This document shows, piece by piece, positions 3,617-64,000 of a stretch of DNA of 64,000 bases (its first letter is position 1; each line of letters begins with the position of its first letter). Source of the stretch: Flavobacteriales bacterium (GTDB taxonomy: Bacteria; Bacteroidota; Bacteroidia; Flavobacteriales_F; PHOS-HE28); NCBI GenBank assembly GCA_019638085.1, contig JAHBUL010000016.1:19453-83452 (forward strand), given 5' to 3'. The notes beneath the pieces are model-generated. The model did not search any database and was not told the origin of the DNA. It worked only from the letters and a program-made list of their open reading frames with translations. The translations under genes and the position numbers were made by a program.

Positions 3617-5110
3617 ATGCAGATCGAAATAGCTCTGCTCATTCTATCCGTCCTGTTCTTTCTGAGCATACTGGCTGGTAAAGCAAGTTCCAGATTCGGC
3701 GTTCCCGCCTTGCTGCTGTTCCTGGCCGTGGGAATGCTCTGGGGCAGCGATGGATTGGGAATTCGGTTTGAGGACGTCCACATTGCACAAAGCATCGGGA
3801 CCGTTGCGCTTTGCATCATTCTCTTTTCCGGAGGAATGGACACCCGATTTTCCGAGGTACGCCCGATCATAGCGCAAGGGGTCGTCCTTGCTACGGTTGG
3901 CGTGTTGCTGACGGCGATCATGACCGGCGCGCTTATCTGGTTGATACTGGGCATGACCATGCAATCCGCCGGCATCGGGGTCTTGACCTCTCTCTTACTG
4001 GCCTCCACAATGTCCTCCACCGATTCGGCATCGGTCTTTTCCATTCTCCGTTCCAAGGGCCTTCGGTTGAAGAACAACCTTCGCCCGATGCTGGAGTTGG
4101 AAAGTGGAAGCAATGACCCCATGGCGTATGTGCTGGTGATCACGATGATCGGGCTCATTCAAATGGATGCAGCGCCGAATTATTGGTTGGCCGGCGGGCT
4201 GTTGTTGCTGCAACTCAGTATTGGCCTGGTTGCAGGTTATCTACTGGGCAAACTTGCCGTGATCACGATAAATCGGATCAACATCGGTAACGATTCACTG
4301 TATCCCATCCTGGTCTTCACCTTCTGCATCTTCATCTTCTCGATCACGCATTTCATCAAGGGAAATGGCTTTTTGGCGGTGTATGTGGGCGGACTGGTGA
4401 TCGGGAATTCAAAGTTCGTGCGCAAGCGCTCGTCGCTTAACTTCTTTGATGGACTCGCCTGGATCTCCCAGCTTGTGATGTTCCTGACATTGGGGCTGTT
4501 GGTGAATCCGAAGGAGCTGTTGCCACTGGCCATACCCGGATTGCTGATCAGCCTCTCCATGATATTCATAGCGCGCCCACTCACGGTTTTCCTGTGCTTG
4601 CTTCCATTTCGAAAAATGCCGATCCGGGACAAGGCCTATGTCTCCTGGGTGGGGCTCAGGGGAGCCGTTCCCATCATCTTCGCCATCTTCCCACTTGTTG
4701 CGGATGTGCCTCATGCAAGGCTCATGTTCAACATCGTCTTTTTCTGCACCTTGGTGTCATTGATACTCCAAGGAACCTCACTTGCCGTTGTAGCCCAATG
4801 GCTTCATCTGGATGAAAGGCAGGGCCGATCAAAGGATTCCGGGGAAACGGAGGTTGACCTGCTGACGGATATCAAGTCCATTGCAACCGAAATAGAAGTG
4901 ACAGCGAGCATTCTGGAAAAAGGCAATAAGCTTGTGTACCTCCCCCTGCCCGATGATGCCCTTGCCGTGCTGGTGAAGCGTGGAGGGAAATATTTCGCTC
5001 CAACAGGAACAACCATCCTGAAGGAAAAGGATATCATCCTGTTGATCGCGGACAACCATGCCGACCTGATGGCGACCTATCAGCAATTAGGGGTGTACAA
5101 CCTGAAGTGA
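3617..5110 (+). CDS. K+/H+ antiporter, NhaP2/CvrA-type (CPA1) with C-terminal TrkA-C-like domain
   Basis: 497 aa. The membrane domain carries GVPALLLFLAVGML and LESGSNDP. A soluble C-terminal ~80 aa (EIEVTASILEKGNKLVYLPLP...ILLIADN) resembles TrkA-C. Confidence 0.85.
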   Translation: MQIEIALLILSVLFFLSILAGKASSRFGVPALLLFLAVGMLWGSDGLGIRFEDVHIAQSIGTVALCIILFSGGMDTRFSEVRPIIAQGVVLATVGVLLTAIMTGALIWLILGMTMQSAGIGVLTSLLLASTMSSTDSASVFSILRSKGLRLKNNLRPMLELESGSNDPMAYVLVITMIGLIQMDAAPNYWLAGGLLLLQLSIGLVAGYLLGKLAVITINRINIGNDSLYPILVFTFCIFIFSITHFIKGNGFLAVYVGGLVIGNSKFVRKRSSLNFFDGLAWISQLVMFLTLGLLVNPKELLPLAIPGLLISLSMIFIARPLTVFLCLLPFRKMPIRDKAYVSWVGLRGAVPIIFAIFPLVADVPHARLMFNIVFFCTLVSLILQGTSLAVVAQWLHLDERQGRSKDSGETEVDLLTDIKSIATEIEVTASILEKGNKLVYLPLPDDALAVLVKRGGKYFAPTGTTILKEKDIILLIADNHADLMATYQQLGVYNLK

Positions 5111-5190
5111 AAATGACAGCTGCCTGCGCGGTGCAGTGCTACGCCGGAATGCGACCATGAGCTACTCGCTTTTAAATTCGAGATCTTTAC

Positions 5191-5374
5191 ACCCGGAATA
5201 TGCAGTAGAAAATCTGCTATGGCATGAAATGGCTGCGGTAGCACGCGCTACGCTGGATTTTGCTCCGAACGGTATCGGAGCGGCACCGTAGCTTCGGCTA
5301 CGCCTTCTCGCCAAAACCCTTGCTACCATTGCCATTTTAACCCTCGCTACGACGTCCTACTGCATAATCCGGGT
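5191..5374. other. compound imperfect palindrome (candidate structured RNA or MITE-like element) in the antiporter-rsgA spacer
   Basis: Outer helix: ACCCGGAATATGCAGTAG (5191-5208) pairs with CTACTGCATAATCCGGGT (5357-5374), 17 of 18. Inner helix: GAAATGGCTGCGGTAGCA (5226-5243) pairs with TGCTACCATTGCCATTTT (5321-5338), two 7-bp segments. Apical hairpin: CGTAGC-TTCG-GCTACG (5287-5302). Confidence 0.5.
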
Positions 5375-5414
5375 TGCAGGTCGTTCACAAAACATCGCTC
5401 AAGCGAAAAGCCCC

Positions 5415-6476
5415 ATGTCCACTGGTCTGGTAATGCGTTCCACCGGCAGCCGCTACATCGTACGCGGCGAGGATGGCGTGCTGCATACGTGCATCGCGAA
5501 GGGCAAGCTGCGCATCAAGGGCTACAGCACCACCAACCCGTTGGCCGTCGGTGATCTGGTGGATTTCATACCTGCTGCCGAAGTGATCGGCAATGAACAT
5601 GTAGGTGCCATCACCAAGCTGCATCAGCGACGTAATTACCTGGTGCGCAAGTCCGTGAACCTCTCGCACCACAAGCATGTGATCGCCAGCAACATGGACC
5701 AGTGCCTGATACTGGTGACCTTGGCCAGGCCGCGCACTTCGTTCGGTTTCATCGATCGCGTGCTGGTGACCGCCGAGGCATACAAGATCCCGCCGGTGAT
5801 CATCTTCAATAAGGTGGATGACTACGACGATGACGAGCTGGGCCTGCTCGCGGAATACGAGGACGTCTACCAAACAGTCGGCTACCGCACATTGATCACT
5901 TCCGCGCTGAAGAACAAGGGCATGGACGCGGTGAAGGCGCTCCTGCACGGCAAGGTCTCGTTGTTGGTAGGGCACAGCGGCGTTGGCAAGAGCACATTGG
6001 TGAATGCCATTGATCCGTCGCTGGACCTGCACACGCTGGAGATCAGTGCTTCCACGGACAAGGGGCAGCATACCACTACGGCGGCCCAGATGTTTGAGCT
6101 TCAGTTGTCAGTTGTCAGTTCTCAGTTGTCAGGCGTTCTCCGACCGGCCTCCGACGATCCTTCGCCATCCACTGCAGTCGGCCCTGACAACCGACAACTG
6201 ACAACTGATAACTCTTCCCCCACCTTCATCATTGATACCCCAGGTGTAAAAGGCTTCGGGCTGGTGGACATGACGCAAAAGGAGATCGTGGACCAGTTCC
6301 CGGAATTTTTCGCGCTGCGGGGTGAATGCCGCTTTGGGGACTGCAAGCACATGCAGGAGCCGGGCTGTGCGGTGCTGGAGGGGCTGGACAAGGGCGAAAT
6401 AGCCGCGAGCCGGTACAACAGTTACATCGACATGGTGGAGGGTGTGGATGAGGCCACGTCGTACCGCACGGATTGA
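5415..6476 (+). CDS. rsgA: ribosome small-subunit-dependent GTPase A, carrying a 38-codon insertion
   Basis: 353 aa with circularly permuted G motifs: G4 FNKVD, G1 GHSGVGKST, switch I GQHTTT and G3 IIDTPG. Zinc knuckle CRFGDCKHMQEPGCAV is present. The ORF is intact across the repeat at 6102-6214. Confidence 0.9.
   Translation: MSTGLVMRSTGSRYIVRGEDGVLHTCIAKGKLRIKGYSTTNPLAVGDLVDFIPAAEVIGNEHVGAITKLHQRRNYLVRKSVNLSHHKHVIASNMDQCLILVTLARPRTSFGFIDRVLVTAEAYKIPPVIIFNKVDDYDDDELGLLAEYEDVYQTVGYRTLITSALKNKGMDAVKALLHGKVSLLVGHSGVGKSTLVNAIDPSLDLHTLEISASTDKGQHTTTAAQMFELQLSVVSSQLSGVLRPASDDPSPSTAVGPDNRQLTTDNSSPTFIIDTPGVKGFGLVDMTQKEIVDQFPEFFALRGECRFGDCKHMQEPGCAVLEGLDKGEIAASRYNSYIDMVEGVDEATSYRTD
6102..6214. repeat. 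palindromic dispersed repeat, copy 1 (inside the rsgA coding sequence, in frame)
   Basis: Left arm CAGTTGTCAGTTGTCAGTTCTCAGTTGTCAGG and right arm CCTGACAACCGACAACTGACAACTGATAACTC are near reverse complements. It shares the exact strings GTTGTCAGGCGTTC and AGTCGGCCCTGACAAC with the copy at 63123-63245. Confidence 0.85.
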
Positions 6477-6527
6477 ATGGGGTGACAAGTGGTACAGGGA
6501 TCGGCACGGGGTTATCTTTGAGGAACC

Positions 6528-6686
6528 ATGCTCGATCGGCGCGATCATATCACATCAGACCCAAAGGTCATGCTCTGAAAGCCCTGCTTCCGGGGTAGCC
6601 GCGTTCCTGTCTATCTGATCCTGCAGAAGATCGCGTTGGGTGAACGTATCGAAGATCTTTTGGCAGGTTATACCATTTCGCAATAG
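6528..6686 (+). pseudogene. DUF433-family (antitoxin-like) gene remnant with in-frame TGA and truncated C-terminus
   Basis: Translation MLDRRDHITSDPKVML*KPCFRGSRVPVYLILQKIALGERIEDLLAGYTISQ* follows the DUF433 pattern as I recall it (I.DP.V.GGKP.IRGTR.PV..IL..LA.G..IE.LL..YP). The stop at 6576-6578 replaces a conserved Gly codon. Confidence 0.6.
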
Positions 6687-6845
6687 AATATCATCAGATC
6701 TACTTGCTCTTTTTTCCGCATTACTTCTCCAAAGAGGTTGCCGCGGCCATAGCTACGGGGCAACCTCCTTGTCCCGCACCGTTGCGGGGCGTCCTGCGAA
6801 AAAATAGCGGCGCATCTTTGGACGACCTTCTATTGCGAAGTGGTA

Positions 6846-6890
6846 TTACTTCAACGCCTCCACCCACACCACTTCCGGCGCTGCACGCTT
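6846..6890 (-). repeat. displaced duplicate of the last 14 codons plus stop of the NifU-like gene (direct repeat partner of 8092-8136)
   Basis: Copy at 6846-6890: TTACTTCAACGCCTCCACCCACACCACTTCCGGCGCTGCACGCTT. Copy at 8092-8136: TCACTTCAACGCTTCCACCCGCACCACTTCCGGGGCTACCCGCTT. They match at 39 of 45 positions. The fragment encodes KRAAPEVVWVEALK* against the gene's KRVAPEVVRVEALK*. Confidence 0.8.
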
Positions 6891-8033
6891 TTACGGATAG
6901 TCAAATCCAAATCTGTAATCCGTCAGCTTGTCCAGCTCAAATTCCAGGATCGCGAAATAGGATGGCATGTTGTACCGGCGCAGGAAATCGGATCGTACAT
7001 GGTCCTTGATCGAATAGGATAAAAGTTCGTGACCACGTTCTCCGTAATAGATCGAATAGCATTTACCCAGTTTGGCAATTACATCCGCTTTGGACATTCC
7101 AAGGGTTACGCTGTTCCCGGAACGGAAGTTCACACTGGGCAGCGTGTCCCGGACGTTCGTTGGCCTTGTCCGGCTCAAACGCATCGCAGCATAGTTATCC
7201 GGGCCATCACCATAATAAATGAAGAACGTCATGTACTGTGACCCGTCGCTGGATCTAAAACCAACATGCGGGAAATCCGTGTTGTCCTCTACAAGTCCGT
7301 TGCTCGGAATACTTCCCAAGACCGCGATGGCACTTGAGGCATCCTCAAGGGCAACATTTGCCAAAGCAGTGTCCGGCAACGTCATCCCACAACGGTCCGG
7401 CATCTCGCGCAGCTCCTTCCTCCAGTCCAAGTACGCACAGTCCGCTTCGCCATTCTTGCGTGCATCCAACAGCATGGACCGGAGTGAAACGGCCTGTGAA
7501 AGGAGGCTTGTATCGGACCCGGCGATCATGTCCTCCTCGACCGATGTCCCGTTGACCGCTTCCCAGCAGAGGGGCGCACCATTTTCAAAAAAATAGGCCG
7601 TACTCGTCGTCGTTGTTTTGGCAGGATCAAAGACCTCCGTGTCGTTGTTCTCCTTACGCTCGGCCTCGTCCCAGTAGTAGGGCCGGTTGTATCGTGAATC
7701 AAGCAGTATTGAATAGGCCAATTCATCGTCAGCAAAGTGGAACGATCGGAATCGCTTCCCGGTCTCACCATGCAACCAGCAAAATGCGATCGAGAGTTTT
7801 CCATCAGGCTTGAAATAGCCAACGGCAGCTCCTCCATCAGTAGACCATTCTTCCACACTGATACAGGTAGAGTCCAGTGAACGCGCCTCCACGATCTGTG
7901 TCTCGCGCAAGCGTTCGGTCGCACGTACTTGATCGATCAGTCCCTGTGCCATGGACAAGGAGCATAAAAACAAGGCCGGGATGAGGGCGAAAGCTCTGCC
8001 ATACCTGCGGCGACCTGTTACGAGGAAGGGCAT
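6891..8033 (-). CDS. hypothetical secreted protein (no family recognised)
   Basis: 380-aa ORF with signal-peptide-like MPFLVTGRRRYGRAFALIPALFLCSLSMAQG. It looks more AT-rich than its neighbours by eye and is bracketed by the 45-bp nfu direct repeats. Confidence 0.65.
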   Translation of the reverse strand: MPFLVTGRRRYGRAFALIPALFLCSLSMAQGLIDQVRATERLRETQIVEARSLDSTCISVEEWSTDGGAAVGYFKPDGKLSIAFCWLHGETGKRFRSFHFADDELAYSILLDSRYNRPYYWDEAERKENNDTEVFDPAKTTTTSTAYFFENGAPLCWEAVNGTSVEEDMIAGSDTSLLSQAVSLRSMLLDARKNGEADCAYLDWRKELREMPDRCGMTLPDTALANVALEDASSAIAVLGSIPSNGLVEDNTDFPHVGFRSSDGSQYMTFFIYYGDGPDNYAAMRLSRTRPTNVRDTLPSVNFRSGNSVTLGMSKADVIAKLGKCYSIYYGERGHELLSYSIKDHVRSDFLRRYNMPSYFAILEFELDKLTDYRFGFDYP

Positions 8034-18267: not shown

Positions 18268-19548
18268 TCACACCGCCTTCACCAAGAAGTAGTTCTTCTT
18301 TCCGCGCTGCAGCATGATGAACTTGCCGGCGATCAGGTCGTCCGCGTTCACCGTGCGGTCCTCGCCTACTTTCACTTTGTTCACGCTGATGCTCCCCTCT
18401 TTCAAGGCGCGTTTGGCTTCTCCCTTTGAAGCCAGAAAGCCCGTGACATCGCTCAACAGATCGATGATGCCCATGCCGGCCTGGATCGTTGTGTGTGCCA
18501 CTTCCGCTTGCGGCACGCCGTCGAATACATCCAGCCACTGCTTCTCGCTGAGCGTACCCAAGCCTTCCGCGGCATTTCCGAACAGGATCGTACTGGCTTG
18601 TATGGCAGCCTCCAGTTCGGCGGCACCGTGTACCAAGGTGGTGATGTGACCAGCGACCGCCTTTTGCAGCCTCCGTTCGTGCGGGGCCGTTGCATGATCG
18701 GCCACCAACGCCTCCACTTCAGTCTGTGTCCACGGTGTGAAGATGGCCGCGAAACGTGCTGCATCCACATCGGTGGCATTCAACCAGAACTGGTAGAACT
18801 TATACGGTGATGTACGCTCCGCATCCAGCCACACGTTGCCGCTTTCGCTTTTGCCGAATTTGCTTCCATCGGCCTTGGTGAGCAGCGGTGTGGTGATCGC
18901 ATAGGCCTCGTTGCCGCCCATGCGCCGGATCAATTCCGTGCCGGTGGTGATGTTGCCCCATTGATCGCTGCCGCCCATCTGCACCGTGCAGTTCTCGTGC
19001 TGGTTCAACCACCAATAATCGTAGCCCTGCACCAGTTGGTAGCTGAACTCCGTGAATGACAACCCGGTTTCCAAGCGGCTCTTCACGCTGTCTTTCGCCA
19101 TCATGTAATTCACCGTGATGTGCTTGCCCACGTCGCGGATGAAGCGCAGGAAGCCCATGTCCTTGAACCAGTCGTAGTTGTTCACCAAGCGCGCCGGATT
19201 GGGGCCGCTGTTGAAATCCAGGAAGCGCTCCAACTGCTTTTGAACGCAGGCCTGGTTGTGGCGCAGCGCATCTTCGTCGAGCAGGTTGCGTTCGCTCTTC
19301 TTCCCGCTGGGATCGCCCACCATGCCCGTGGCCCCGCCCACCAGGGCTACCGGCTTGTGACCGCAGCGCTGGAAGTGGACCAGGATCATGATCTGAACCA
19401 GATTGCCCACATGGAGCGAATCAGCGGTGGGATCGAAGCCGATATAGCCGCTGGCAGGGCCTTTCAGCAAATGCTCTTCAGCGCCGGGCGTACTGTCCTG
19501 CAACAAGCCGCGCCAGCGGAGTTCCTGTACAAAGTTGGTTACTGCCAT
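18268..19548 (-). CDS. tyrS: tyrosine--tRNA ligase
   Basis: 426 aa from the internal ATG ([16 protein letters not shown]...). It has a HIGH-type motif (SLHVGNL), a KMSKS-type motif (KFGKS) and a C-terminal S4-like domain. The upstream 137 track codons are Arg-rich junk. Confidence 0.95.
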
Positions 19549-19676
19549 TTTTTTACCGCCAAGGGCGCAAAGGATGCAAAGGTCCGATAAATCGGACGCA
19601 AAGAAATGCAAGCGCTCCGGACCGGCGACCTCAAGCAGCAGGTCGATAACTTGCGGCCGCGCCAATTCGCGCTTAG

Positions 19677-20678
19677 ATGGATCTGGTAACAGGAGGAACG
19701 GGGATCGTGGGCGCGCATGTGCTGGACGCGTTGCTGACCCAAGGAAGAACCGTGCATGCCTTGCTGCGGGAGGGCAGTGACGCATCCATCGTGAAGCGGA
19801 TCCTGCAACACTATCACCCCGACGGTGCCGAGCGCTTTCAACGCATCCACTGGGTGGCAGGTGATCTGTTCGACGAAGATGTGTTGCGCGAAGCAATGCA
19901 GGGAGCAGTGCACGTGTACCATTGCGCCGCCTTGGTATCCTTCGACCCGCGCGATGCACATGCCCTGCACCACATCAACGTGGAAGGGACCGCCAATGTG
20001 GTGGATGCTGCGCTGGAGGCTGGTGTGCAGCGCGTTTGCCATGTGAGTTCCACGGCCTCCATCGGCGGCGGAATGGATGGCGGAACGGGTGATGAGACAA
20101 AGCCCTTTGTGCTGGACAGACGCTCCTCGGGCTATGCGATCAGCAAGGCGGATGCCGAGCTGGAGGTACACCGCGGCATCGCCGAAGGACTGGATGCGGT
20201 GATGGTGAACCCGTGCGTGGTGATCGGCCCCGGGCAGCACGGTCGCAGTAGCATGACGATGATCGATCGCGTGCGGAAGGGTTCGCGCTTTTTTCCGGGA
20301 GGTACCAATGCGATCGTGGATGCGCGTGATGTGGCCACAGCGATGGTGCGCTTGATCACCGAAGGGAGATCCGGTGAACGCTATCTCCTGATCGGGGAGC
20401 ACATCAGCTACCAGCGGCTCTTCACCTTGATCACGCAAAGCAATGGAAAGTCTGCTCCTTCCATGAAGCTGCCAGCGTGGGCGTTGGAATTGGGCTGGCG
20501 CGCAGAAGTGGCACGAACGCTCTTTGGCGGACGCCCGCTGGTGACACGCAACACGGCGCGGACGGCCTCGCGGATCCGTCACTACGATGGCTCGAAAGCG
20601 GAGCATTTGCTGGGGATGCGCTTCCGCTCTGCGGAAGAGGCCATCGCGAACGTGGCTGCTTTCCTTGAGCGGGGATGA
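19677..20678 (+). CDS. NAD-dependent epimerase/dehydratase (SDR) family protein
   Basis: 333 aa with Rossmann motif [12 protein letters not shown] and catalytic YAISK (YxxxK). Confidence 0.85.
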
Positions 20679-23530: not shown

Positions 23531-26500
23531 TCAGCGAACGAGCGTTACATGGCCGATGTGCTCGAAGCGCGTGTTCGCTACCATGTCCTGTCCCGTAAGC
23601 TTCCACACATAGACTCCGATCGGTGCGGGATTTCCGTTGCTGAAATTCCCGTCCCATTTCGCGTTCATATCCTCGGTGTTGTACACCTCCTTCCCCCACC
23701 GATCCACGATGATGAAATGGTAATCGTTCGGGTCGAGTCCCATGACCACCGGTGCGAATTCATCGTTGATGCCATCCCCATCCGGGGTGAAGGCGTTGGC
23801 CGTGAACACGGAAGCACTGGCGGGTACCAACAGGTCCTCACAGATCGTGTCCGAACAAGTGGGTGAGGCATAGGCGATCAGGCAAATGGGGTAGATCTCT
23901 TCCACGTTGTACGGGAAGGTGAATTGCGGATTCGCCAGTGTGGATGTACCCATACCCCCAAAGTCCCAGAGGTATGCACTAGCGCCTGTACTCCCGTTGG
24001 CGAAAGCGGCAGTAGGACTGGTCGTACTTGTGATCCGGCCTACGATGCTGAAGGCTGCAACGGGCCTTTCCACCACACGCACAAGTTGATCCACCTCGGT
24101 GGTAACCGCACATCCATTCCCTGGATCAGCGGTGAAGTGTACCACGTAGTTCCCGGGCTGGTCATAGGTGATCGTGATGGGACCACAATCGGTGGTATCC
24201 ATTCCATTACCGAAGTTCCAGTAGCATGTTCCATCTCCGGCATAGCCGCTGGTGAACGTGACCTGCACGGGCACACATCCCTCGCTCATCTCGAAGTTTG
24301 GTGCGACATCCGGAATGGGCGTCACAGTGACCTCCACGCTGGCGATATCCTGCTGGCACGGCGCTGGTGCGGTCACGGTATAGATGTAGGAACCACTGAT
24401 CGCCGCAGTCGGATCAAGAATACCATCGGCGCTGATCCCTGCGGGACCGGACCATGTTCCTCCAACATCCGGTGTGCCGCTGAGCAAGTTGAAAAGCTGG
24501 AAGGACTCAGCATTCGCGCAGACGGTGGTGTCGCCATCAATGCCGGCGTAGGCCGCTGGGGAAACGCTGATGTCCACGGTGGCCACCGCTTGTGCGCAAC
24601 TGGCCACAGCAGGCATTAGATAGCTGTATGCTCCTGGGATGGAGCTGCTCGGGTCGAATGTCGCCGAAGTGGCATTGCCATCCGGATCTGTCCAAGAACC
24701 TCCAGCATCCGGCTCGCCACCCAGTAAATTCAACATGTTCACGGGTGGGTTGATGCTGCACAAGGCCGCCGTGGTATCATTTCCTGCGTCCGGAGCCTGT
24801 ACTACTACCACGACCACCTCGGCAGAGGCCGATGGACAAGGCGAGGCGCCTTGGACGGTGTAGATATAGGTTCCTGATGAATTCGTGCTCGGATCGAGAA
24901 TGCCGTTGAAGGGATCATTGTTGGGCGGCATGGTCCAGGTTCCTCCGGCATCCGGAGCACCGCCAAGCTCGCCGAACAGCGCCACCGGAGCGCCGTCGCT
25001 GCATACGCTCAGTGCACCGTTCGTTCCGGCATCCACAGCATGATTGATGGAGAGGCTCACTACCGCTGATGCATCCGGGCAGGAAGCATTGCCTGTAACG
25101 GTATAGGTATATGGCCCCTCCTCGGCGGTTGCCGGGTTGATGGATGCTGAAGTAGCGAGCCCATCCGGACCGATCCAGGTGCCGCCTTGCTGCGGATTCC
25201 CTGAGAGTAGGCCATGCAAGTTCACCACCGGGCCTGCATCACAGAGTGCCACCGCATTGTCCTGGCCTGCATTAGGTCCGGGAAGGACGATCATTTGTAC
25301 CGTGGCGGAAACATCCGCACAAACACCGCCGATGAATTGGTAAGTGTACACGCCTTGCGTGGAAGTTGCAGGATCGAAAATTCCGGTCGAAGTACCTCCG
25401 GGTCCTGTCCAGGTACCACCTTGATCGGGGTTTCCGCCGAGGAGCGTGAACAGGTTGACAGGGGCATCTCCCGTGCATACTGTATCGAGCGCATTGATGC
25501 CGGGGTCTTGCGGGGCTTCGATCACCACCTCAACTTCAGCGGTGGCATCCACACAAGGAGGTGTGGCACTCAGCGTATATGTGTAAATACCTGCGGTATT
25601 CACTACCGGATCGAACTGGTCGTTCGTGATCGTGCTGGGACCGCTCCACGTTCCGCCGGCATCGGGGCTACCGCCCAACTGCGTGAAGAGGTTGATCGCG
25701 GAGCCATCCTCACAGACCGTCACCGACCCATCGGTGCCCGCGTTCGGGCTGCCCGTCTCAGTGACCGTTACCGTGGCGCTTGCGCTGCCGCAAGGTGCCG
25801 TGCCTGTCACCGTATAGGTGTAATCACCGGGGGCCATCGTCGCGGGATCGTACTGATCGCCCGTCACCGGGCTTGGACCGCTCCAGCTGCCGCCGGTGTC
25901 CGGGGTGCCGAGCGCCGCCAGCAGGCTCACCGCTGCACCTTGGTCGCAGACCGTGAGGTCACCATCCGTGCCGGCGTCAGGGGTGGGGACTTCGATGACC
26001 GTGACCGTCGCCTGATCACCAATACATGGAGGAGCGCCTGGTAGCGAATAGATGAAAGCGCCCGGCGGCGTAACACCAGGAACATAAGATCCACTGAATC
26101 CTCCCGACCATGTGCCGCCAGGCTGGGCTCCGTCCAACATGGTGAACAGGTTCACTGCACTACTGCTCGAGCACAGGGTAATGGTGGTATCACGCCCGGC
26201 ATTCGGTGCGGTGACCTCCACCACGGTTACCACTGCCTGATCACTAGCACAAGGAGCAATCCCGTTGACCGTGTAGATATAGGGTCCTTCAGGATCAACA
26301 GTTGGTTCGTAAGTGCCATCGAATAAAATGCCACTCGGTCCAGTCCAAGCTCCACCACCTTGGGCGCCGGTCAACACGAAGAACAGGTTCGTTGTGCTAT
26401 TGGAGGAGCACAGGGTGAAGATCGTATCCAACCCAGCATTGGGAGAAACCACTTCGTTCACCGTCACCGTGGCCGTCGCATTCCCGCAGGGTGCCACACC

Positions 26501-61275: not shown

Positions 61276-62178
61276 ATGTCCACCATCCTCATTACCGGCG
61301 GCAGCGGCCTCATTGGTGGCCATCTTACCAAGCTCTTGCTGAAAGAAGGTTATACCGTGCGGCACCTCAGCCGTACCGTTAGGGTCAATGTTGCCGTGCC
61401 CACGTTCAAATGGGACATCAGCAAGGGTTTTGTGGACCCACTTGCGCTGGATAGCGTGGACCACATCGTACACCTTAGCGGTGCCGGCATTGCGGATGGA
61501 TCGTGGACGAAGGAGCGTATGCAAGTGCTCTATTCCAGCCGGGTGGATGCAGCTGAATTGTTGCGAAACGAAGTGGAGCGATCCGGCATTTGGCCCAAGA
61601 GCTTTATCAGCGCAAGCGGCATCAATTACTACGGTGCATTAACCTCGGATCACCTGTTCACGGAAAGCGATCCGCCAGCCAACGATACCATCGGCAAATT
61701 GACGCAGGCCTGGGAAGAGGCGGCGGATGCATGGGCACCGCATTGTCGGGTGGTGAAGCTGCGCACATCCGTAGTGCTCGCACAAGAGGGTGGCGCATTA
61801 CCGAAGCTTGCGAAGCCTGCACGATGGGGGCTTTCCGCGCCCTTGGGAACAGGCACGCAATGGATGCCCTGGGTCCACGTTGAAGACCTTGCACAGGTCT
61901 ATCTTCATGCCATCCGGCATACCGTGTTGGAAGGTGCATATAACATCGTGGCGCCGGAAGACGTGCAGAACCAGGAATTCATGCGGCAACTGGCTGAGGT
62001 ATTACACAAGCCCTTTTTCGTCCCGCATGTTCCGGCATTCGCCATCCGCGCCATACTTGGGGAAATGAGCGGCTTGATACTCGAAGGTTCGCGTGCTTCC
62101 AATGCGAAACTGACCGCAACCGGCTTCGAATTCCGGCATCCGAAGTTGAGGGAAGCGTTGAGCGGGCTACTTCAATAG
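61276..62178 (+). CDS. TIGR01777/YfcH-like epimerase family protein (SDR fold plus DUF1731-like C-terminus)
   Basis: MSTILITGGSGLIGGHL Rossmann start, from the internal ATG at 61276. The C-terminal FEFRHPKLREAL is typical of the family. Confidence 0.8.
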   Translation: MSTILITGGSGLIGGHLTKLLLKEGYTVRHLSRTVRVNVAVPTFKWDISKGFVDPLALDSVDHIVHLSGAGIADGSWTKERMQVLYSSRVDAAELLRNEVERSGIWPKSFISASGINYYGALTSDHLFTESDPPANDTIGKLTQAWEEAADAWAPHCRVVKLRTSVVLAQEGGALPKLAKPARWGLSAPLGTGTQWMPWVHVEDLAQVYLHAIRHTVLEGAYNIVAPEDVQNQEFMRQLAEVLHKPFFVPHVPAFAIRAILGEMSGLILEGSRASNAKLTATGFEFRHPKLREALSGLLQ

Positions 62179-63116
62179 TTCCGCACCATCAACTGTGCCG
62201 AAAGCGCCCGCAGCGGCTGTTTCCGATCCTCCGGGACCTCGATCGCATCCAGCGCTTCCATGGCCTTCGTCTCCTCAGCTTGTATGGCGCGTTCAGCTTC
62301 ATCCCGTACTCCTAGCTCCTCCAGGGTCCGTAACATTTGCGCTACATCACGCTGATCCGGTGTCTTCGCCAATTCCTTCTGCAGTTCACTTCGTCCACTT
62401 GACGCACTCTGCTCCAAGCCACGGATCAACAGGATCGTCTTCTTTCCCGCGAGAAGGTCGCCGCCTTGTTGTTTGCCTGTCCTGATGGGATCACCGAAAG
62501 CATCGAGCAGGTCATCGCGCAATTGAAAAGCGAGACCGATGTGCTCCCCGAACGCACCGATGTGCTCGCTGTCGGCTGTAGATGCTCCGGCAATTGCAGC
62601 TCCCACCCGCAGCGAACAAGCCAAGAGCACGGCGGTCTTCAAGCGGATCATGTCCATGTACTCATCAGCGCCGACATCATTACGCTCCTCGAACTCCATG
62701 TCGAGCTGCTGACCTTCGCACACTTCCAGCGCATATCGGCTGAAGATCGCCGCCACGTCCGGTCTCTTCGCCATCAACTGATATGACTTCACCATCATGG
62801 CGTCGCCGCTGAGGATGGCGGTGTTCACGTTCCACTTTTCATGCACGGTAGGCTGGCCACGGCGCAAGGGTGCCGCGTCCATGATGTCGTCATGCATCAG
62901 AGTGAAGTTGTGGAAGAGTTCGATGCCCAAGGCTGCGTCGAGTGCATCTTCTGTGCGGCCACCGAAGAGCTCGCAACCCATCAACACCAATGCCGGCCGA
63001 ACACGCTTGGCAGGCAAGGCCATGAGGTAGGCCATCGGTGCATAGAGACCACCTTGGGGTAATGCGCTCACCCAGGCTTCCAAGTGCTTGTCGATCAAGG
63101 TGCGGTGGTGGGGCAT
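62172..63116 (-). CDS. polyprenyl diphosphate synthase family protein
   Basis: 314 aa with first Asp-rich motif LMHDDIMD...RRG and second motif FQLRDDLLD. Confidence 0.9.
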   Translation of the reverse strand: MPHHRTLIDKHLEAWVSALPQGGLYAPMAYLMALPAKRVRPALVLMGCELFGGRTEDALDAALGIELFHNFTLMHDDIMDAAPLRRGQPTVHEKWNVNTAILSGDAMMVKSYQLMAKRPDVAAIFSRYALEVCEGQQLDMEFEERNDVGADEYMDMIRLKTAVLLACSLRVGAAIAGASTADSEHIGAFGEHIGLAFQLRDDLLDAFGDPIRTGKQQGGDLLAGKKTILLIRGLEQSASSGRSELQKELAKTPDQRDVAQMLRTLEELGVRDEAERAIQAEETKAMEALDAIEVPEDRKQPLRALSAQLMVRNY

Positions 63117-63122
63117 GCGGGT

Positions 63123-63245
63123 CAGTTGTCCGTTTTTAGTTGTTAGTTGTCAGGCGTTCCACGACCGTCCTCTGTTATTGCAGTACATCCGGCCTTTCGT
63201 CGCCACTCAATGAAGTCGGCCCTGACAACGGACAACGGACAACTG
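63123..63245. repeat. palindromic dispersed repeat, copy 2 (fills the rfbA to polyprenyl-synthase spacer)
   Basis: Arms CAGTTGTCCGTTTTTAGTTGTTAGTTGTCAGG and CCTGACAACGGACAACGGACAACTG. The inner ends GTTGTCAGGCGTTC and AGTCGGCCCTGACAAC are identical to copy 1 at 6102-6214. Confidence 0.85.
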
Positions 63246-63248
63246 GGT

Positions 63249-64000
63249 TCACGACACCAATTTCATCAAGTACTCGCCGTAACCGCTCTTCAACAAGGGT
63301 GTTGCCAACGCCTTCAATTGCGTCGCATCGATCCAGCCCTTTTTGTAGGCTACCTCCTCGATGCAGCCAATTCGTAGCCCTTGGCGCTCCTCGATCACCT
63401 GCACGAACTGCCCGGCCTGCATCAACGAAACAAAGGTGCCGGTATCGAGCCATGCAGTACCGCGATCGAGGATCTCCACCTTCAGCTTACCACGCTTCAG
63501 GTATTCCTTGTTCACGTCCGTGATCTCGTACTCGCCGCGCGCACTGGGCTTCAACGCAGCCGCCACCTCCACCACGCTGTTGTCGTAGAAATACAGGCCC
63601 GGAACAGCGAAGTTGCTGCGCGGCTTTTCCGGTTTCTCCTCGATGCTGATCGCGATGTTGTCCTTATCGAACTCCACTACGCCATAGCGTTCCGGATCGC
63701 TGACGTGGTAAGCGAAGACAAGGCCGCCGTCCAGTACGGTGTTGGCGCCCAGCTTGCGCCCCAAACCAGCGCCATAGAAGATGTTGTCGCCAAGTATCAA
63801 CGCCACGGGATCGTTACCGATGAACTCGCGACCGATGACGAAGGCTTGCGCCAGGCCGTTGGGCACCACTTGTTCCGCGTAGCTGAAATCACAGCCGAGG
63901 CTTTTCCCATCACCGAGCAGTTTCCTGAAGTTCGGCAGATCATATGGGGTGCTGATGATGAGCACTTCGCGAATGCCCGCCGCGAGCAAGGTGCTCAACG
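63249..64000 (-). CDS. rfbA: glucose-1-phosphate thymidylyltransferase, C-terminal ~250 codons (N-terminus beyond the right edge)
   Basis: [31 protein letters not shown]...[13 protein letters not shown]...LGDNIFYG...YGVVEFD...[10 protein letters not shown] is the typical RmlA sequence. The track 'M' here is a TTG inside the gene. Confidence 0.92.

What the first reader, a model, noticed from the sequence alone, without database searches (positions are those of the whole stretch)
6102..6214. Palindromic octamer-armed repeat inserted in-frame inside the GTPase gene rsgA
The rsgA ORF is intact but carries 38 extra codons (QLSVVSSQLSGVLRPASDDPSPSTAVGPDNRQLTTDNS). They lie between switch I (GQHTTTAAQMFEL) and the G3 motif (IIDTPG). 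E. coli RsgA, as I recall it, has only a short turn there (LYHFPHGGDVIDSPG). At the DNA level the block is a ~113-bp hairpin. The left arm CAGTTGTCAGTTGTCAGTTCTCAGTTGTCAGG pairs with the right arm CCTGACAACCGACAACTGACAACTGATAACTC, and both arms are built from tandem CAGTTGTC octamers. A second copy in non-coding DNA (63123-63245) shares exact inner ends. That argues for a dispersed selfish or structural repeat that landed in a CDS in a stop-free way, in a length divisible by three, rather than a lineage-specific protein domain. This resembles the Rickettsia palindromic elements that insert in-frame into ORFs. I know of no equivalent description for Bacteroidota.
Basis: partly seen in the sequence, partly recalled or inferred. 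Interest (0 to 1): 0.78.

Follow-up and report, generated by a model that had tools for sequence, protein, structure and literature searches.

The report
Heptamer-armed DNA palindrome inside rsgA
A 113-bp DNA hairpin whose arms are inverted runs of a 7-base repeat sits in-frame in a surface loop of the ribosome-assembly GTPase RsgA of a Flavobacteriales bacterium; it is a repeat element kept by DNA-level processes, not a protein domain, and the same gene site carries such repeats in many related lineages.

Summary
Window 6102-6214 is a strong hairpin (-54 kcal/mol, z=-7.6) inside an intact rsgA. The arm unit is a heptamer (GTTGTCN), not an octamer. A second copy (63121-63245) shares the core ends.

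It is not a protein domain. The loop is predicted disordered, at the beta12/beta13 turn. Substitutions are spread evenly over codon positions. Many orthologues have only a 3-10 aa loop.

New findings:
1. The 49-nt core is inverted in place relative to the nearest orthologues, while the arms stayed collinear.
2. The same rsgA site carries hairpins or arrays of at least five related heptamer types across Flavobacteriales, more than 100-fold enriched over flanking DNA.
3. The arms diverge four times more slowly than synonymous sites, with no RNA-sense or covariation signal.
4. Copy 2 was built on an older solo array.
5. Similar in-frame hairpins occur in Hsp70, Mfd and a glycosyltransferase of other Bacteroidota.

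Best reading: a heptamer-array palindrome of the TAACTGA-repeat class, tolerated in a permissive loop and shaped by slippage and arm-to-arm template switching. It works like Rickettsia palindromic elements but is not a member of that family. I rate it a new variant of a known kind. Why this site recurs, and why the arms are so conserved, is unresolved.

The parts
5415..6476 (+). rsgA (ribosome small-subunit biogenesis GTPase), the host gene. It is intact at 353 aa; the end coordinate includes the stop codon.
   Evidence: ORF list. Pfam RsgA_GTPase E=4.9e-49 and RsgA_N. E. coli RsgA chains in 30S complexes match at E about 1e-47.
6102..6133 (+). Left arm: four tandem heptamers (CAGTTGT x4, the third being CAGTTCT) plus CAGG. 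Translated as QLSVVSSQLSG.
   Evidence: Tandem Repeats Finder period 7, 4.6 copies. Inverted-repeat arm. 30-31 of 32 nt identical to the left arms of L001, L002 and L037.
6134..6182 (+). 49-nt core (the hairpin loop region). It is inverted in place relative to the orthologous elements of the nearest relatives.
   Evidence: Forward identity to L001/L002/L037 is 14-17 of 49; reverse-complement identity is 34-39 of 49. The core is stop-free in both orientations, as are 53% of shuffled cores.
6183..6214 (+). Right arm: CC plus four NGACAAC-type units (TGACAAC, CGACAAC, TGACAAC, TGATAAC) plus TC. Translated as PDNRQLTTDNS.
   Evidence: Tandem Repeats Finder period 7, 4.3 copies. Inverted-repeat arm. 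27-30 of 32 nt identical to orthologous right arms.
6192..6192 (+). Stop-avoiding base: C instead of the usual T at the first position of the one unit that falls at codon phase 0. TGACAAC would read TGA in frame here.
   Evidence: Units at phase 0 never start with T, against 12 of 19 at other phases and 26 of 34 in intergenic arrays. Its pairing partner, window 6124, is mismatched in all four orthologous elements (columns 23/91).
63121..63245 (.). Copy 2: an intergenic hairpin of the same family. On the + strand the arms are 63123-63154 and 63221-63245 and the core is 63155-63220. The two flanking genes are on the minus strand. It ends 4-6 nt upstream of the ATG of the polyprenyl synthetase gene.
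   Evidence: Orthologous spacers in relatives hold only a solo (GTTGTCN)x4 array (L107, L108) or a single unit (L109).
62172..63116 (-). Polyprenyl synthetase gene, immediately downstream of copy 2 in the direction of transcription.
   Evidence: ORF list. Precomputed Pfam PF00348 on orthologues.
63249..63998 (-). 3' part of a nucleotidyl-transferase (RfbA-like) gene. Its stop codon lies 3 nt from copy 2.
   Evidence: ORF list. Pfam NTP_transferase E=1e-46.

Best explanation
What it is:
- The feature is a 113-bp DNA palindrome. Its arms are inverted tandem arrays of the heptamer GTTGTCN (the complement reads NGACAAC; the unit CAACTGA is one base from the described TAACTGA repeat). The arms flank a 49-nt core.
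- It belongs to a dispersed class of heptamer-array repeats, both solo arrays and hairpins, found in this Flavobacteriales lineage and in other Bacteroidota.
- It lies in-frame at the tip of the beta12/beta13 hairpin of the RsgA GTPase domain. It is read through by the ribosome as a disordered loop of about 38 aa.
- It has been inherited vertically throughout the window's clade.

How it most likely works (inferred):
- It has no role in RsgA function. It persists because the loop tolerates it.
- DNA-level processes keep renewing it. Replication slippage within the heptamer arrays adds and removes units.
- Template switching or recombination between the two inverted arms keeps them alike. This also flipped the core in the window's lineage.
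- Recombination anchored on heptamer arrays copies cores and arms between loci, as at copy 2.
- Selection acts only on the reading frame: the net length stays a multiple of three and there is no in-frame TGA.

Shown here: anatomy, orthology, the inversion, stop avoidance, absence of protein-level constraint, and slow divergence of the arms.
Inferred: slippage, template switching and conversion between loci as the mechanisms.
For: Anatomy and significance:
-.

Location:
- The insert lies between strands 225-229 and 270-274; pLDDT is below 50 for residues 234-266.
- It replaces E. coli residues 258-263. That is the beta12/beta13 turn as described in PMC5499641.

Not a protein domain:
- Orthologue loops range from 3 to about 60 aa.
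- 37-40% of substitutions in the element fall at third codon positions, against 67% in the host gene (Fisher p about 4e-4).
- The core flip recodes about 16 aa.

Vertical inheritance:
- All sampled members of the window's clade carry an insert at the same nucleotide position.
- The flipped core is 69-80% identical to the orthologous cores.

Inversion confined to the core:
- The arms are 30-31/32 and 27-30/32 identical in the forward sense. The core matches 34-39/49 only as its reverse complement.

DNA-level rather than RNA-level palindromy:
- G-U pairs number 30 on the sense strand and 42 on the antisense strand, and the antisense strand folds as well or better.
- There are no compensatory pairs.

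Arm maintenance and rapid renewal:
- Per-site divergence is 0.10 in the arms, 0.29 in the core and 0.39 at host third positions.
- L061 has perfect arms while its near-identical sisters L064 and L066 are decayed.
- Some orthologues show 7-aa-periodic peptide expansions (21 nt, three units), for example P0037.

Reading-frame selection:
-.

Dispersed family with matching unit type within a genome:
-.

Transfer between loci:
- Copy 2 has an rsgA-like core, while relatives have only a solo array at that spacer.

No linked enzyme:
- None found in the window.

From established knowledge (cited in PMC4679880):
- Heptamers are the commonest class of long simple-sequence repeats in bacteria.
- Repeats are hotspots for misalignment mutations.
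Against: - Arms that diverge four times more slowly than synonymous sites, over distances where fourfold sites are 50-67% identical, could equally reflect selection on the sequence.
- The GTTGTCN unit is shared with Hymenobacter, a Thermoanaerobaculia genome, Nostocales, a Desulfobacterales genome and many viral contigs. That hints at a sequence-specific trans-acting factor rather than passive slippage.
- The same rsgA nucleotide position carries at least five unit types, with insert-free sister lineages in between. More than 100-fold enrichment at one site is not explained by loop tolerance alone.
- Only the 5'-(GTTGTCN)n...(NGACAAC)n-3' arrangement is seen. A purely random process does not predict this.
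- Slippage and template switching were not observed directly.
- There is no whole-genome census for the source organism.
Confidence: 0.58

Rival explanations
1. It is a non-autonomous mobile element (MITE- or REPIN-like). A trans-acting, sequence-specific enzyme encoded elsewhere in the genome, or carried by phages, moves it. The enzyme prefers existing heptamer arrays and the rsgA site as targets. The rsgA hotspot would then reflect repeated targeted insertion.
For: - The two window copies share a core.
- The hairpin at the copy 2 locus is specific to the window's lineage, while relatives have only a solo array there.
- The unit type in rsgA matches other arrays in the same genome.
- L035 and L039 keep a CAGTTGTCA remnant 5' of a different unit type, which looks like nesting or replacement.
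- Insert-bearing and insert-free sister lineages are interleaved.
- L061 has perfect arms next to decayed sisters.
- GTTGTCN arrays are abundant in viral contigs.
Against: - No target-site duplication was evident at the junctions I read; I did not test this systematically.
- Cores differ between copies in other genomes.
- An exact core-end pattern gives only 1-3 copies per genome.
- None of the 38 window ORFs I scanned against Pfam matched a transposase, recombinase or HUH enzyme.
- GAGTGGC-type inserts from four clades are collinear from the same start nucleotide, which favours descent.
- The window-clade core co-diverges roughly with the host gene.
Confidence: 0.22
2. It is a functional cis element. 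It could be a recoding intragenic inverton, with programmed flipping of the core giving two RsgA loop variants. Or it could be a protein- or RNA-binding heptamer array or hairpin that modulates expression of rsgA and of the genes next to the intergenic copies.
For: - The arms are conserved well beyond synonymous sites.
- The core is inverted between close relatives and is open in both orientations.
- Short recoding intragenic inversions, for example 57 bp, are documented in Bacteroides (PMC10028968).
- Intergenic copies sit a few nucleotides upstream of start codons in housekeeping operons: copy 2, rpmA in three Hymenobacter species and L108.
- This placement echoes the translational-regulation proposal for TAACTGA repeats (PMC4679880).
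- The host loop belongs to a hairpin that moves during GTPase activation (PMC5499641).
Against: - Many lineages have lost the insert, or keep only a decayed, unstructured remnant.
- There is no excess of G-U pairs on the sense strand and no covariation.
- 53% of shuffled cores are open in both orientations.
- The only near-identical relative, P0001, has the same orientation. Two further assemblies of the strain show copy 2 in the same orientation.
- None of the 38 window ORFs I scanned matched an invertase.
- A 49-nt invertible segment is short for recombinase-mediated inversion (my own knowledge).
Confidence: 0.13
3. It is a lineage-specific protein loop kept for a protein-level role in RsgA, and the DNA palindromy is incidental.
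For: - The insert has stayed in-frame for a long time in the window's clade.
- It sits in a hairpin that moves on 30S binding.
Against: - Substitutions are evenly spread over codon positions.
- The core inversion replaced about 16 residues with unrelated ones.
- The loop is predicted disordered.
- Peptide sequences in other lineages are unrelated except through the shared DNA repeat.
- A near-identical DNA element occurs in non-coding DNA.
Confidence: 0.03

Closest known systems
Rickettsia palindromic elements (RPE; Ogata et al. 2000, as summarised in PMC10969869)
   Same: - Palindromic repeats of about 100-150 bp.
- Inserted in-frame into housekeeping genes, adding a peptide segment while the host protein stays intact.
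- Other copies are intergenic.
- Regarded as selfish DNA tolerated at permissive sites.
   Different: - RPE families have a conserved full-length consensus that encodes a conserved peptide. Here only the heptamer arms are shared, and the cores are mostly unrelated.
- The arms here are tandem 7-nt arrays.
- The host is Flavobacteriales rather than Rickettsia.
- One gene site is occupied across a deep clade, with turnover of the unit type.
- Sequence relatedness to RPEs was not tested.
TAACTGA and related heptamer direct repeats; heptamer long simple-sequence repeats (MacGregor 2015, PMC4679880; Mrazek 2007 as cited there); cyanobacterial STRR heptamers (my own knowledge)
   Same: - A 7-nt unit one base different (CAACTGA against TAACTGA).
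- Tandem arrays, mostly intergenic and often just upstream of start codons.
- Found in Bacteroidetes, Cyanobacteria and a few others.
- The forward orientation gives stop codons in all three frames. The reverse orientation gives an LSV..Q-type peptide.
   Different: - Those arrays are direct repeats reported as not forming secondary structure, with only one inverted case noted.
- Here two arrays lie in inverted orientation around a core and form a long hairpin.
- The element sits in the middle of a conserved enzyme domain.
REP / BIME / REPIN elements with RAYT transposases (my own knowledge; PMC6006769 was listed but I did not read it)
   Same: - Short species-specific repeats arranged as inverted pairs that form hairpins.
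- Dispersed, long-lived at orthologous loci, and matched in type within a genome.
   Different: - REPs are extragenic and are not tandem heptamer arrays.
- No RAYT-like gene was found in the window. The rest of the genome could not be examined.
Recoding intragenic invertons of Bacteroides (Chanin et al., PMC10028968)
   Same: - Inverted repeats flank a short segment that lies entirely within a gene.
- Inversion recodes the peptide without breaking the frame.
- The host phylum is Bacteroidota.
   Different: - Those are reversible within clonal populations and presumed to be invertase-mediated.
- Here the two orientations are seen only as a fixed difference between species. No invertase is linked.
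Quasi-palindrome template-switch mutation and small hairpin-loop inversions (known from E. coli genetics and chloroplast DNA; my own knowledge)
   Same: - An enzyme-independent, replication-based mechanism that makes imperfect inverted repeats more perfect and can flip the loop between two stem arms.
- It fits the collinear arms, the flipped core and the regenerated perfect arms.
   Different: - It has been described for non-coding spacers or mutational hotspots, not for an element maintained in-frame in a conserved gene.
- It is not demonstrated here.

Membership tests
RsgA/YjeQ GTPase (host gene) | RsgA_N (OB) domain, circularly permuted GTPase domain and C-terminal zinc-finger region | tested here: met
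   Pfam RsgA_GTPase E=4.9e-49 and RsgA_N E=1.5e-7. Alignment to E. coli RsgA runs over residues 4-228 and 272-346. GHSGVGKS, HTTT, DTPG and CRFGDCKHMQEPGC are visible in the translation.
Rickettsia palindromic elements | Palindromic repeat of about 100-150 bp inserted in-frame in ORFs with the host gene intact | tested here: met
   A 113-bp hairpin lies in an intact rsgA. Further in-frame cases occur in Hsp70, Mfd and a PMT_2 protein.
Rickettsia palindromic elements | Family-wide conserved full-length consensus encoding a conserved peptide | tested here: not met
   Only the heptamer arms are shared. Cores differ between copies, apart from the two window copies.
Rickettsia palindromic elements | Sequence homology to a described RPE family | not tested
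   I had no RPE sequences to compare, and the host is in a different phylum.
MITE | Terminal inverted repeats | tested here: met
   31-nt arms, 90% complementary.
MITE | Target-site duplication flanking the element | tested here: inconclusive
   No direct repeat was evident at the rsgA junction, at copy 2 or at the orthologue junctions I read. I did not run a systematic test.
MITE | A cognate autonomous element or transposase with matching ends | tested here: not met
   None of the 38 window ORFs I scanned against Pfam matched a transposase, recombinase or HUH enzyme. The rest of the genome was not available.
Heptamer simple-sequence repeats (TAACTGA class) | Tandem direct repeats of a 7-nt unit | tested here: met
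   Tandem Repeats Finder period 7 at 6101-6132, 6184-6213, 63124-63150 and 63224-63243.
Heptamer simple-sequence repeats (TAACTGA class) | Unit sequence TAACTGA | tested here: not met
   The unit is CAACTGA (GTTGTCA) with a variable seventh base. Only occasional TAACT-containing units occur.
Heptamer simple-sequence repeats (TAACTGA class) | Mostly intergenic, close to start codons | tested here: met
   True for copy 2, which ends 4-6 nt from an ATG, and for its orthologous solo arrays. Not true for the rsgA copy.
REP/REPIN | Extragenic location and an associated RAYT transposase | tested here: not met
   The rsgA copy is intragenic, and the window has no RAYT-like gene. A genome-wide search was not possible.
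Intragenic inverton | Inverted repeats flanking a segment wholly inside a gene, with both orientations existing | tested here: met
   The core is flipped between the window and L001/L002/L037 while the arms are collinear.
Intragenic inverton | Both orientations coexisting and switching within one population, mediated by an invertase | not testable with these tools
   No reads were available. P0001 (99% identical) has the same orientation as the window. The window has no invertase.
Structured RNA family (Rfam) | Match to a curated covariance model at or above its gathering score | tested here: not met
   Only sub-threshold matches to generic miRNA-hairpin models (36.5 bits against a gathering score of 63).

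The most novel reading that the evidence does not exclude
- GTTGTCN-type heptamer arrays are the recognition sites of a conserved, sequence-specific trans-acting system. This could be a nucleic-acid-binding protein or a recombinase, possibly spread by phages.
- That system propagates and homogenises the arrays across phyla.
- The rsgA beta12/beta13 loop is a preferred docking site for it.
- Flipping of the core is a programmed recoding event, not an accident of replication.
Probability: 0.12. Interest if true: 0.85.

Novelty: new variant of a known kind. Interest (0 to 1): 0.62.

Why it matters
- In-frame palindromic repeats in housekeeping genes are best known from Rickettsia. This finding shows an analogous but differently built phenomenon in free-living Bacteroidota, with arms made of tandem heptamers. 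It affects at least four conserved genes.
- It links that phenomenon to the poorly understood TAACTGA-type heptamer repeats. Their function and their patchy distribution across phyla are open questions.
- The rsgA site gives a natural time series of one such element: gain or loss, unit turnover, decay into an ordinary protein loop, and a core inversion that recodes 16 residues. That makes the mutational mechanisms directly testable.
- Practically, these arrays get mis-called as small 'hypothetical proteins', and they inflate or break gene models.

Tried and rejected
- **Rfam scan of 5000-7200.** It gave only sub-threshold miRNA-hairpin models.
- **Profile of insert peptides against the 5.8-billion-protein set.** The word-index step returned only 33-70 aa spurious ORFs, not host proteins. 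That was useful only for showing such hairpins in Nostocales and other phyla.
- **Exhaustive representative search with the 40-aa peptide.** It gave one chance hit, P0156, a repeat protein.
- **The look-up of encoding contigs for the exact RsgA.** The protein is not on record. The source genome is apparently absent from the GTDB representatives, so I could not count copies genome-wide.
- **Apparent in-ORF arrays in the flanks** (L044 1479, L050 1645, L081 601, L085 909, L104, L002 3458). The 'ORFs' are antisense or upstream read-through, and the arrays are intergenic.
- **Correlation of insert divergence with host divergence.** It was weak and not significant, so it does not discriminate descent from re-insertion.
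- **Covariation test on four orthologous elements.** No compensatory pairs.
- **Bidirectional openness of the core as evidence of design.** Rejected, because 53% of shuffles are open both ways.
- **PHROGs check of an array-rich viral contig.** One weak structural-domain hit only, so I could not confirm phage identity independently.
- **Assembly artefact.** Rejected. The insert recurs in many independent assemblies.
- **Target-site duplications.** None evident at the junctions I read.
Full report
**1. Observation**

The rsgA ORF (5415-6476, +) is intact at 353 aa. It has RsgA_GTPase (E=4.9e-49) and RsgA_N domains.

Positions 6102-6214 form an inverted repeat. The arms are 31 nt, 90% complementary, and 49 nt apart. 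The fold is -54 kcal/mol against -28.7 +/- 3.3 for shuffles, z=-7.6.

The arm period is 7, not 8. Tandem Repeats Finder reports period 7 with 4.6 and 4.3 copies, and GTTGTCA starts at 6104, 6111 and 6125. The hairpin proper is 113 nt, so only the net insertion is a multiple of three.

Alignment to E. coli RsgA breaks at query residue 228 and resumes at 272, where E. coli has residues 258-263. The excess is about 37-38 aa.

Copy 2 (63121-63245) shares the exact inner ends. Its core aligns to the rsgA core in the same orientation with a 17-nt indel. It fills the 132-nt spacer between an RfbA-like gene and a polyprenyl synthetase gene, both on the minus strand. It ends 4-6 nt from the ATG. The window has no further copies.

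**2. It is not a protein domain**

The 120 closest RsgA proteins are all from Flavobacteriales or Bacteroidetes metagenome-assembled genomes, at 61-99% identity. Their length varies at exactly this site, from a 3-aa loop to about 60 aa.

An AlphaFold model places the insert between two strands (225-229 and 270-274). Residues 230-269 have no secondary structure, and pLDDT is below 50 for 234-266. In E. coli numbering this is the beta12/beta13 hairpin turn. That hairpin moves with the OB domain when the 30S subunit activates the GTPase pocket (PMC5499641).

I compared the window element with its three 113-nt orthologues. Substitutions in the element are spread evenly over codon positions: 37-40% fall at third positions, against 67% in the host gene (Fisher p about 4e-4).

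Per-site divergence was:

| Region | Divergence per site |
|---|---|
| Arms | 0.10 |
| Core | 0.29 |
| Host gene third positions | 0.39 |

Fourfold-degenerate sites are 50-67% identical between these genomes.

**3. The core is inverted in place**

L001 and L002 carry RsgA proteins 87% and 84% identical to the window's. They carry an element of the same length at the same site.

| Segment | Forward identity to the window | Reverse-complement identity |
|---|---|---|
| Left arm | 30-31 of 32 | 26-28 of 32 |
| Right arm | 27-30 of 32 | 26-28 of 32 |
| Core | 14-17 of 49 | 34-39 of 49 |

These figures are and also cover L037.

So only the 49-nt core flipped. The orientation seen in L001, L002 and L037 is the majority among orthologues. 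The window and P0001 (99% identical) are the derived state.

Flipping the core keeps the frame open, whereas flipping the whole element would create an in-frame TGA. Openness in both orientations is not remarkable, because 53% of shuffled cores have it.

**4. Reading-frame selection**

Perfect (TGACAAC)n has a TGA in every frame. In all in-frame copies, the unit whose first base falls at codon phase 0 is altered to CGACAAC, GAACAAC, AAACAAC or CAACAAC. T is kept in 12 of 19 units at other phases and in 26 of 34 intergenic units.

In the window the altered base is C6192. Its pairing partner is mismatched in all four orthologous elements.

**5. The rsgA site across lineages**

From 70 orthologous loci, I extracted the DNA between the conserved anchors HTTT...M-x-x-x and x-F-x-IDTPG. 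Hairpins with different but related heptamer units occupy the same position:

| Unit type | Loci |
|---|---|
| GTTGTCA | window, L001, L002, L037, L038/L097 |
| GTAGTTC / CTACGAA | L039, L041, L089 |
| GAGTGGC / GCCACTC | L044, L058, L061, L081, L085, L050, L066 |
| GAGCCAC / GCTCGAA | L042/L043 |

- L035/L036 and L040 have one-armed GTGAGTC arrays.
- Several other inserts are decayed and unstructured.
- About 30 orthologues have only 9-33 nt at the site.
- All inserts begin right after the conserved Glu-Leu codons and end before Pro-Thr-Phe.

On a neighbour-joining tree built without the insert, every member of the window's clade has an insert. The GAGTGGC type appears in at least four clades, each with an insert-free sister. 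Those GAGTGGC inserts are collinear from the same start nucleotide. Their column identity is 73%, against 42-69% at fourfold sites. That favours common descent with repeated loss.

However, L061 has four perfect units per arm, while its near-identical sisters L064 and L066 are decayed or shortened. Renewal and loss can therefore be fast.

Across 526 kb of these loci, 17-18 of 40 period-7 arrays lie at the rsgA site, which is under 1% of the DNA. The unit type in rsgA usually matches other arrays in the same locus.

L035 and L039 keep a CAGTTGTCA remnant 5' of a different unit type. This suggests replacement or nesting in place.

**6. Palindromy is a DNA-level property**

G-U pairs are not enriched on the sense strand (30 sense, 42 antisense). 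The antisense strand folds as well or better. The four orthologous elements show 89.5% of cells paired, 22 of 31 pairs invariant, and no compensatory changes. Rfam has no matching family.

**7. A dispersed family, and transfer between loci**

A scan of GTDB species-representative genomes for the core end plus two units gave 32 hits, against roughly 17 expected by chance. True hairpins were found in:

- three Hymenobacter species, at an orthologous site about 16 nt upstream of rpmA;
- other Hymenobacter loci;
- Flavobacteriales metagenome-assembled genomes, including two more in the L002 genome;
- a Thermoanaerobaculia genome.

Further in-frame cases are an Hsp70 in a Hymenobacter genome (L010), Mfd (L040, unit CAAGCCN) and a PMT_2 glycosyltransferase (L025).

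At the locus orthologous to copy 2, relatives at 82-86% protein identity have only a solo (GTTGTCN)x4 array followed by GGACGC and the ATG. One at 80% has a single unit. Two other assemblies of the same strain have the full hairpin, one identical and one with a single SNP.

So the hairpin form with its rsgA-like core was added onto an older solo array. This implies copying between loci. The alternative, two deletions in the relatives, is less parsimonious.

None of the 38 window ORFs I scanned against Pfam matched a transposase, recombinase or HUH enzyme.

**8. Mechanism**

I favour a self-renewing DNA palindrome tolerated in a permissive loop:

- Heptamer slippage changes the number of units. 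Peptide expansions with a 7-aa period (21 nt), such as in P0037, fit this.
- Template switching or recombination between the inverted arms keeps them alike and can flip the loop.
- Recombination anchored on the arrays moves cores between loci.
- Selection polices only the frame and stop codons.

These mechanisms are established for repeats in general. That rests on my own knowledge and on reviews cited in PMC4679880. They are inferred here, not shown.

Three observations are not explained by this reading:
- the strength of the rsgA hotspot;
- the four-fold slower divergence of the arms;
- the sharing of the GTTGTCN unit across phyla and with many viral contigs.

On the last point, at least 120 IMG/VR stretches matched. 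They hold 136 arrays in 1.0 Mb, 25 in hairpin arrangement against 3 in the reverse arrangement. These observations keep two rivals alive: a trans-acting mobility system, and a functional cis element.

**9. Comparison with known systems**

- It works like Rickettsia palindromic elements, which are in-frame palindromic repeats in housekeeping genes (PMC10969869). It lacks their conserved full-length consensus.
- Its arms belong to the class of TAACTGA-type heptamer repeats described in Beggiatoaceae, Cyanobacteria and five Bacteroidetes (PMC4679880). Those are direct, mostly intergenic arrays reported as unstructured.
- The core flip resembles the recoding intragenic invertons of Bacteroides (PMC10028968). 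I could not test whether it is reversible.
- I found no description of heptamer-armed hairpins in-frame in conserved genes of Bacteroidota in the searches I ran.

**Verdict**

It is a real feature and a new variant of a known kind. Interest is moderate to high.

Noticed in passing
IMG/VR loci L110-L229 (for example L143, L120, L160 and L177 from UViG_3300043379_000009): Three-unit GTTGTCN arrays are very common in viral contigs. They hold 136 arrays in 1.0 Mb, 25 in hairpin arrangement, with a median GC of 62%. Some sit just upstream of start codons. A PHROGs check of one array-rich contig gave only a weak structural-domain hit.
   Followed up: partly
L008 about 4966-5077, L020 about 6658-6769, L031 about 6699-6810: Three Hymenobacter species carry an orthologous GTTGTCN-armed hairpin about 16 nt upstream of rpmA (ribosomal protein L27, starting MAHKKG...).
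   Followed up: partly
L010 618-2696; L040 5876-7480; L025 (reverse strand, whole contig): Other conserved genes carry in-frame heptamer hairpins. One is an Hsp70 (DAGL-[VIGSQLSVASEKKGPALTTDNQQLITK]-LDAVLLVGG). One is Mfd, between its UvrB-interaction and CarD/TRCF domains, with unit CAAGCCN. One is a PMT_2 glycosyltransferase that appears to hold two adjacent elements.
   Followed up: partly
L044 about 1440-1500, L050 about 1600-1670, L081 about 560-631, L085 about 870-939: GAGTGGC-type hairpins lie at an orthologous intergenic site, directly after the stop codon of a gene ending ...VKKAFKL*, in four genomes.
   Followed up: partly
All hairpin loci (window, L001-L002, L008-L031, L035-L097, viral loci): All unit types read NAG plus four bases on the left-arm strand (CAGTTGT, GAGTGGC, GAGCCAC, GAGTCGT, TAGTTGT, AAGCCNC). 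The arrangement is almost always 5'-(unit)n...(complement)n-3': 13 loci against 1 for GTTGTC, and 25 against 3 in viral loci.
   Followed up: partly
P0121-P0155 (for example P0122 Dolichospermum, P0150 Nostoc PCC 7120 asr4108, P0126 Desulfobacterales HSG2): Annotated 'hypothetical proteins' of 33-70 aa are translations of GTTGTCN arrays or hairpins (QLSVV...TTDN). They are probably spurious gene calls.
   Followed up: partly
L002 3458-3520 and 7400-7437; L108 17281-17302; L107 1210-1245; L044 696-811; L047 921-1056: Solo tandem heptamer arrays of various units (GGAGTCG, GTTAGTT/GTTGTCA, GGGTACC, GAGTGGC/GAGTGAC, up to 136 nt) lie in operon spacers next to housekeeping genes such as rplU-rpmA, sucA-sucB and pyrH-frr.
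   Followed up: no
window 6512-6670: A small DUF433-like reading frame just downstream of rsgA is interrupted by an in-frame TGA (MLDRRDHITSDPKVML*KPCFRGSRVPVYLILQKIALGERIEDLLAGYTISQ*). I recognised the DUF433 likeness by eye and did not test it. Homologous DNA lies downstream of rsgA in L039 (78%) and L038/L097 (72%). It is absent from the 83-93-nt spacers of L001 and L002.
   Followed up: partly
window 6667-6695 / 6821-6849 and 5191-5208 / 5357-5374: Two further inverted repeats flank rsgA: one of 29 nt (83% complementary, 125 nt apart) and one of 18 nt (94%, 148 nt apart). They are unrelated to the heptamer family and remain unexplained.
   Followed up: no
window 26463-27361: A 237-nt tandem repeat (3.8 copies, 75% matches) lies inside the 1861-aa ORF that ends in a CHU_C type IX secretion domain.
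   Followed up: no
window 18271-19959 (-): The tyrosyl-tRNA synthetase ORF is 563 aa, and its catalytic domain starts only at residue 168. This is either an N-terminal extension or an over-extended start.
   Followed up: no
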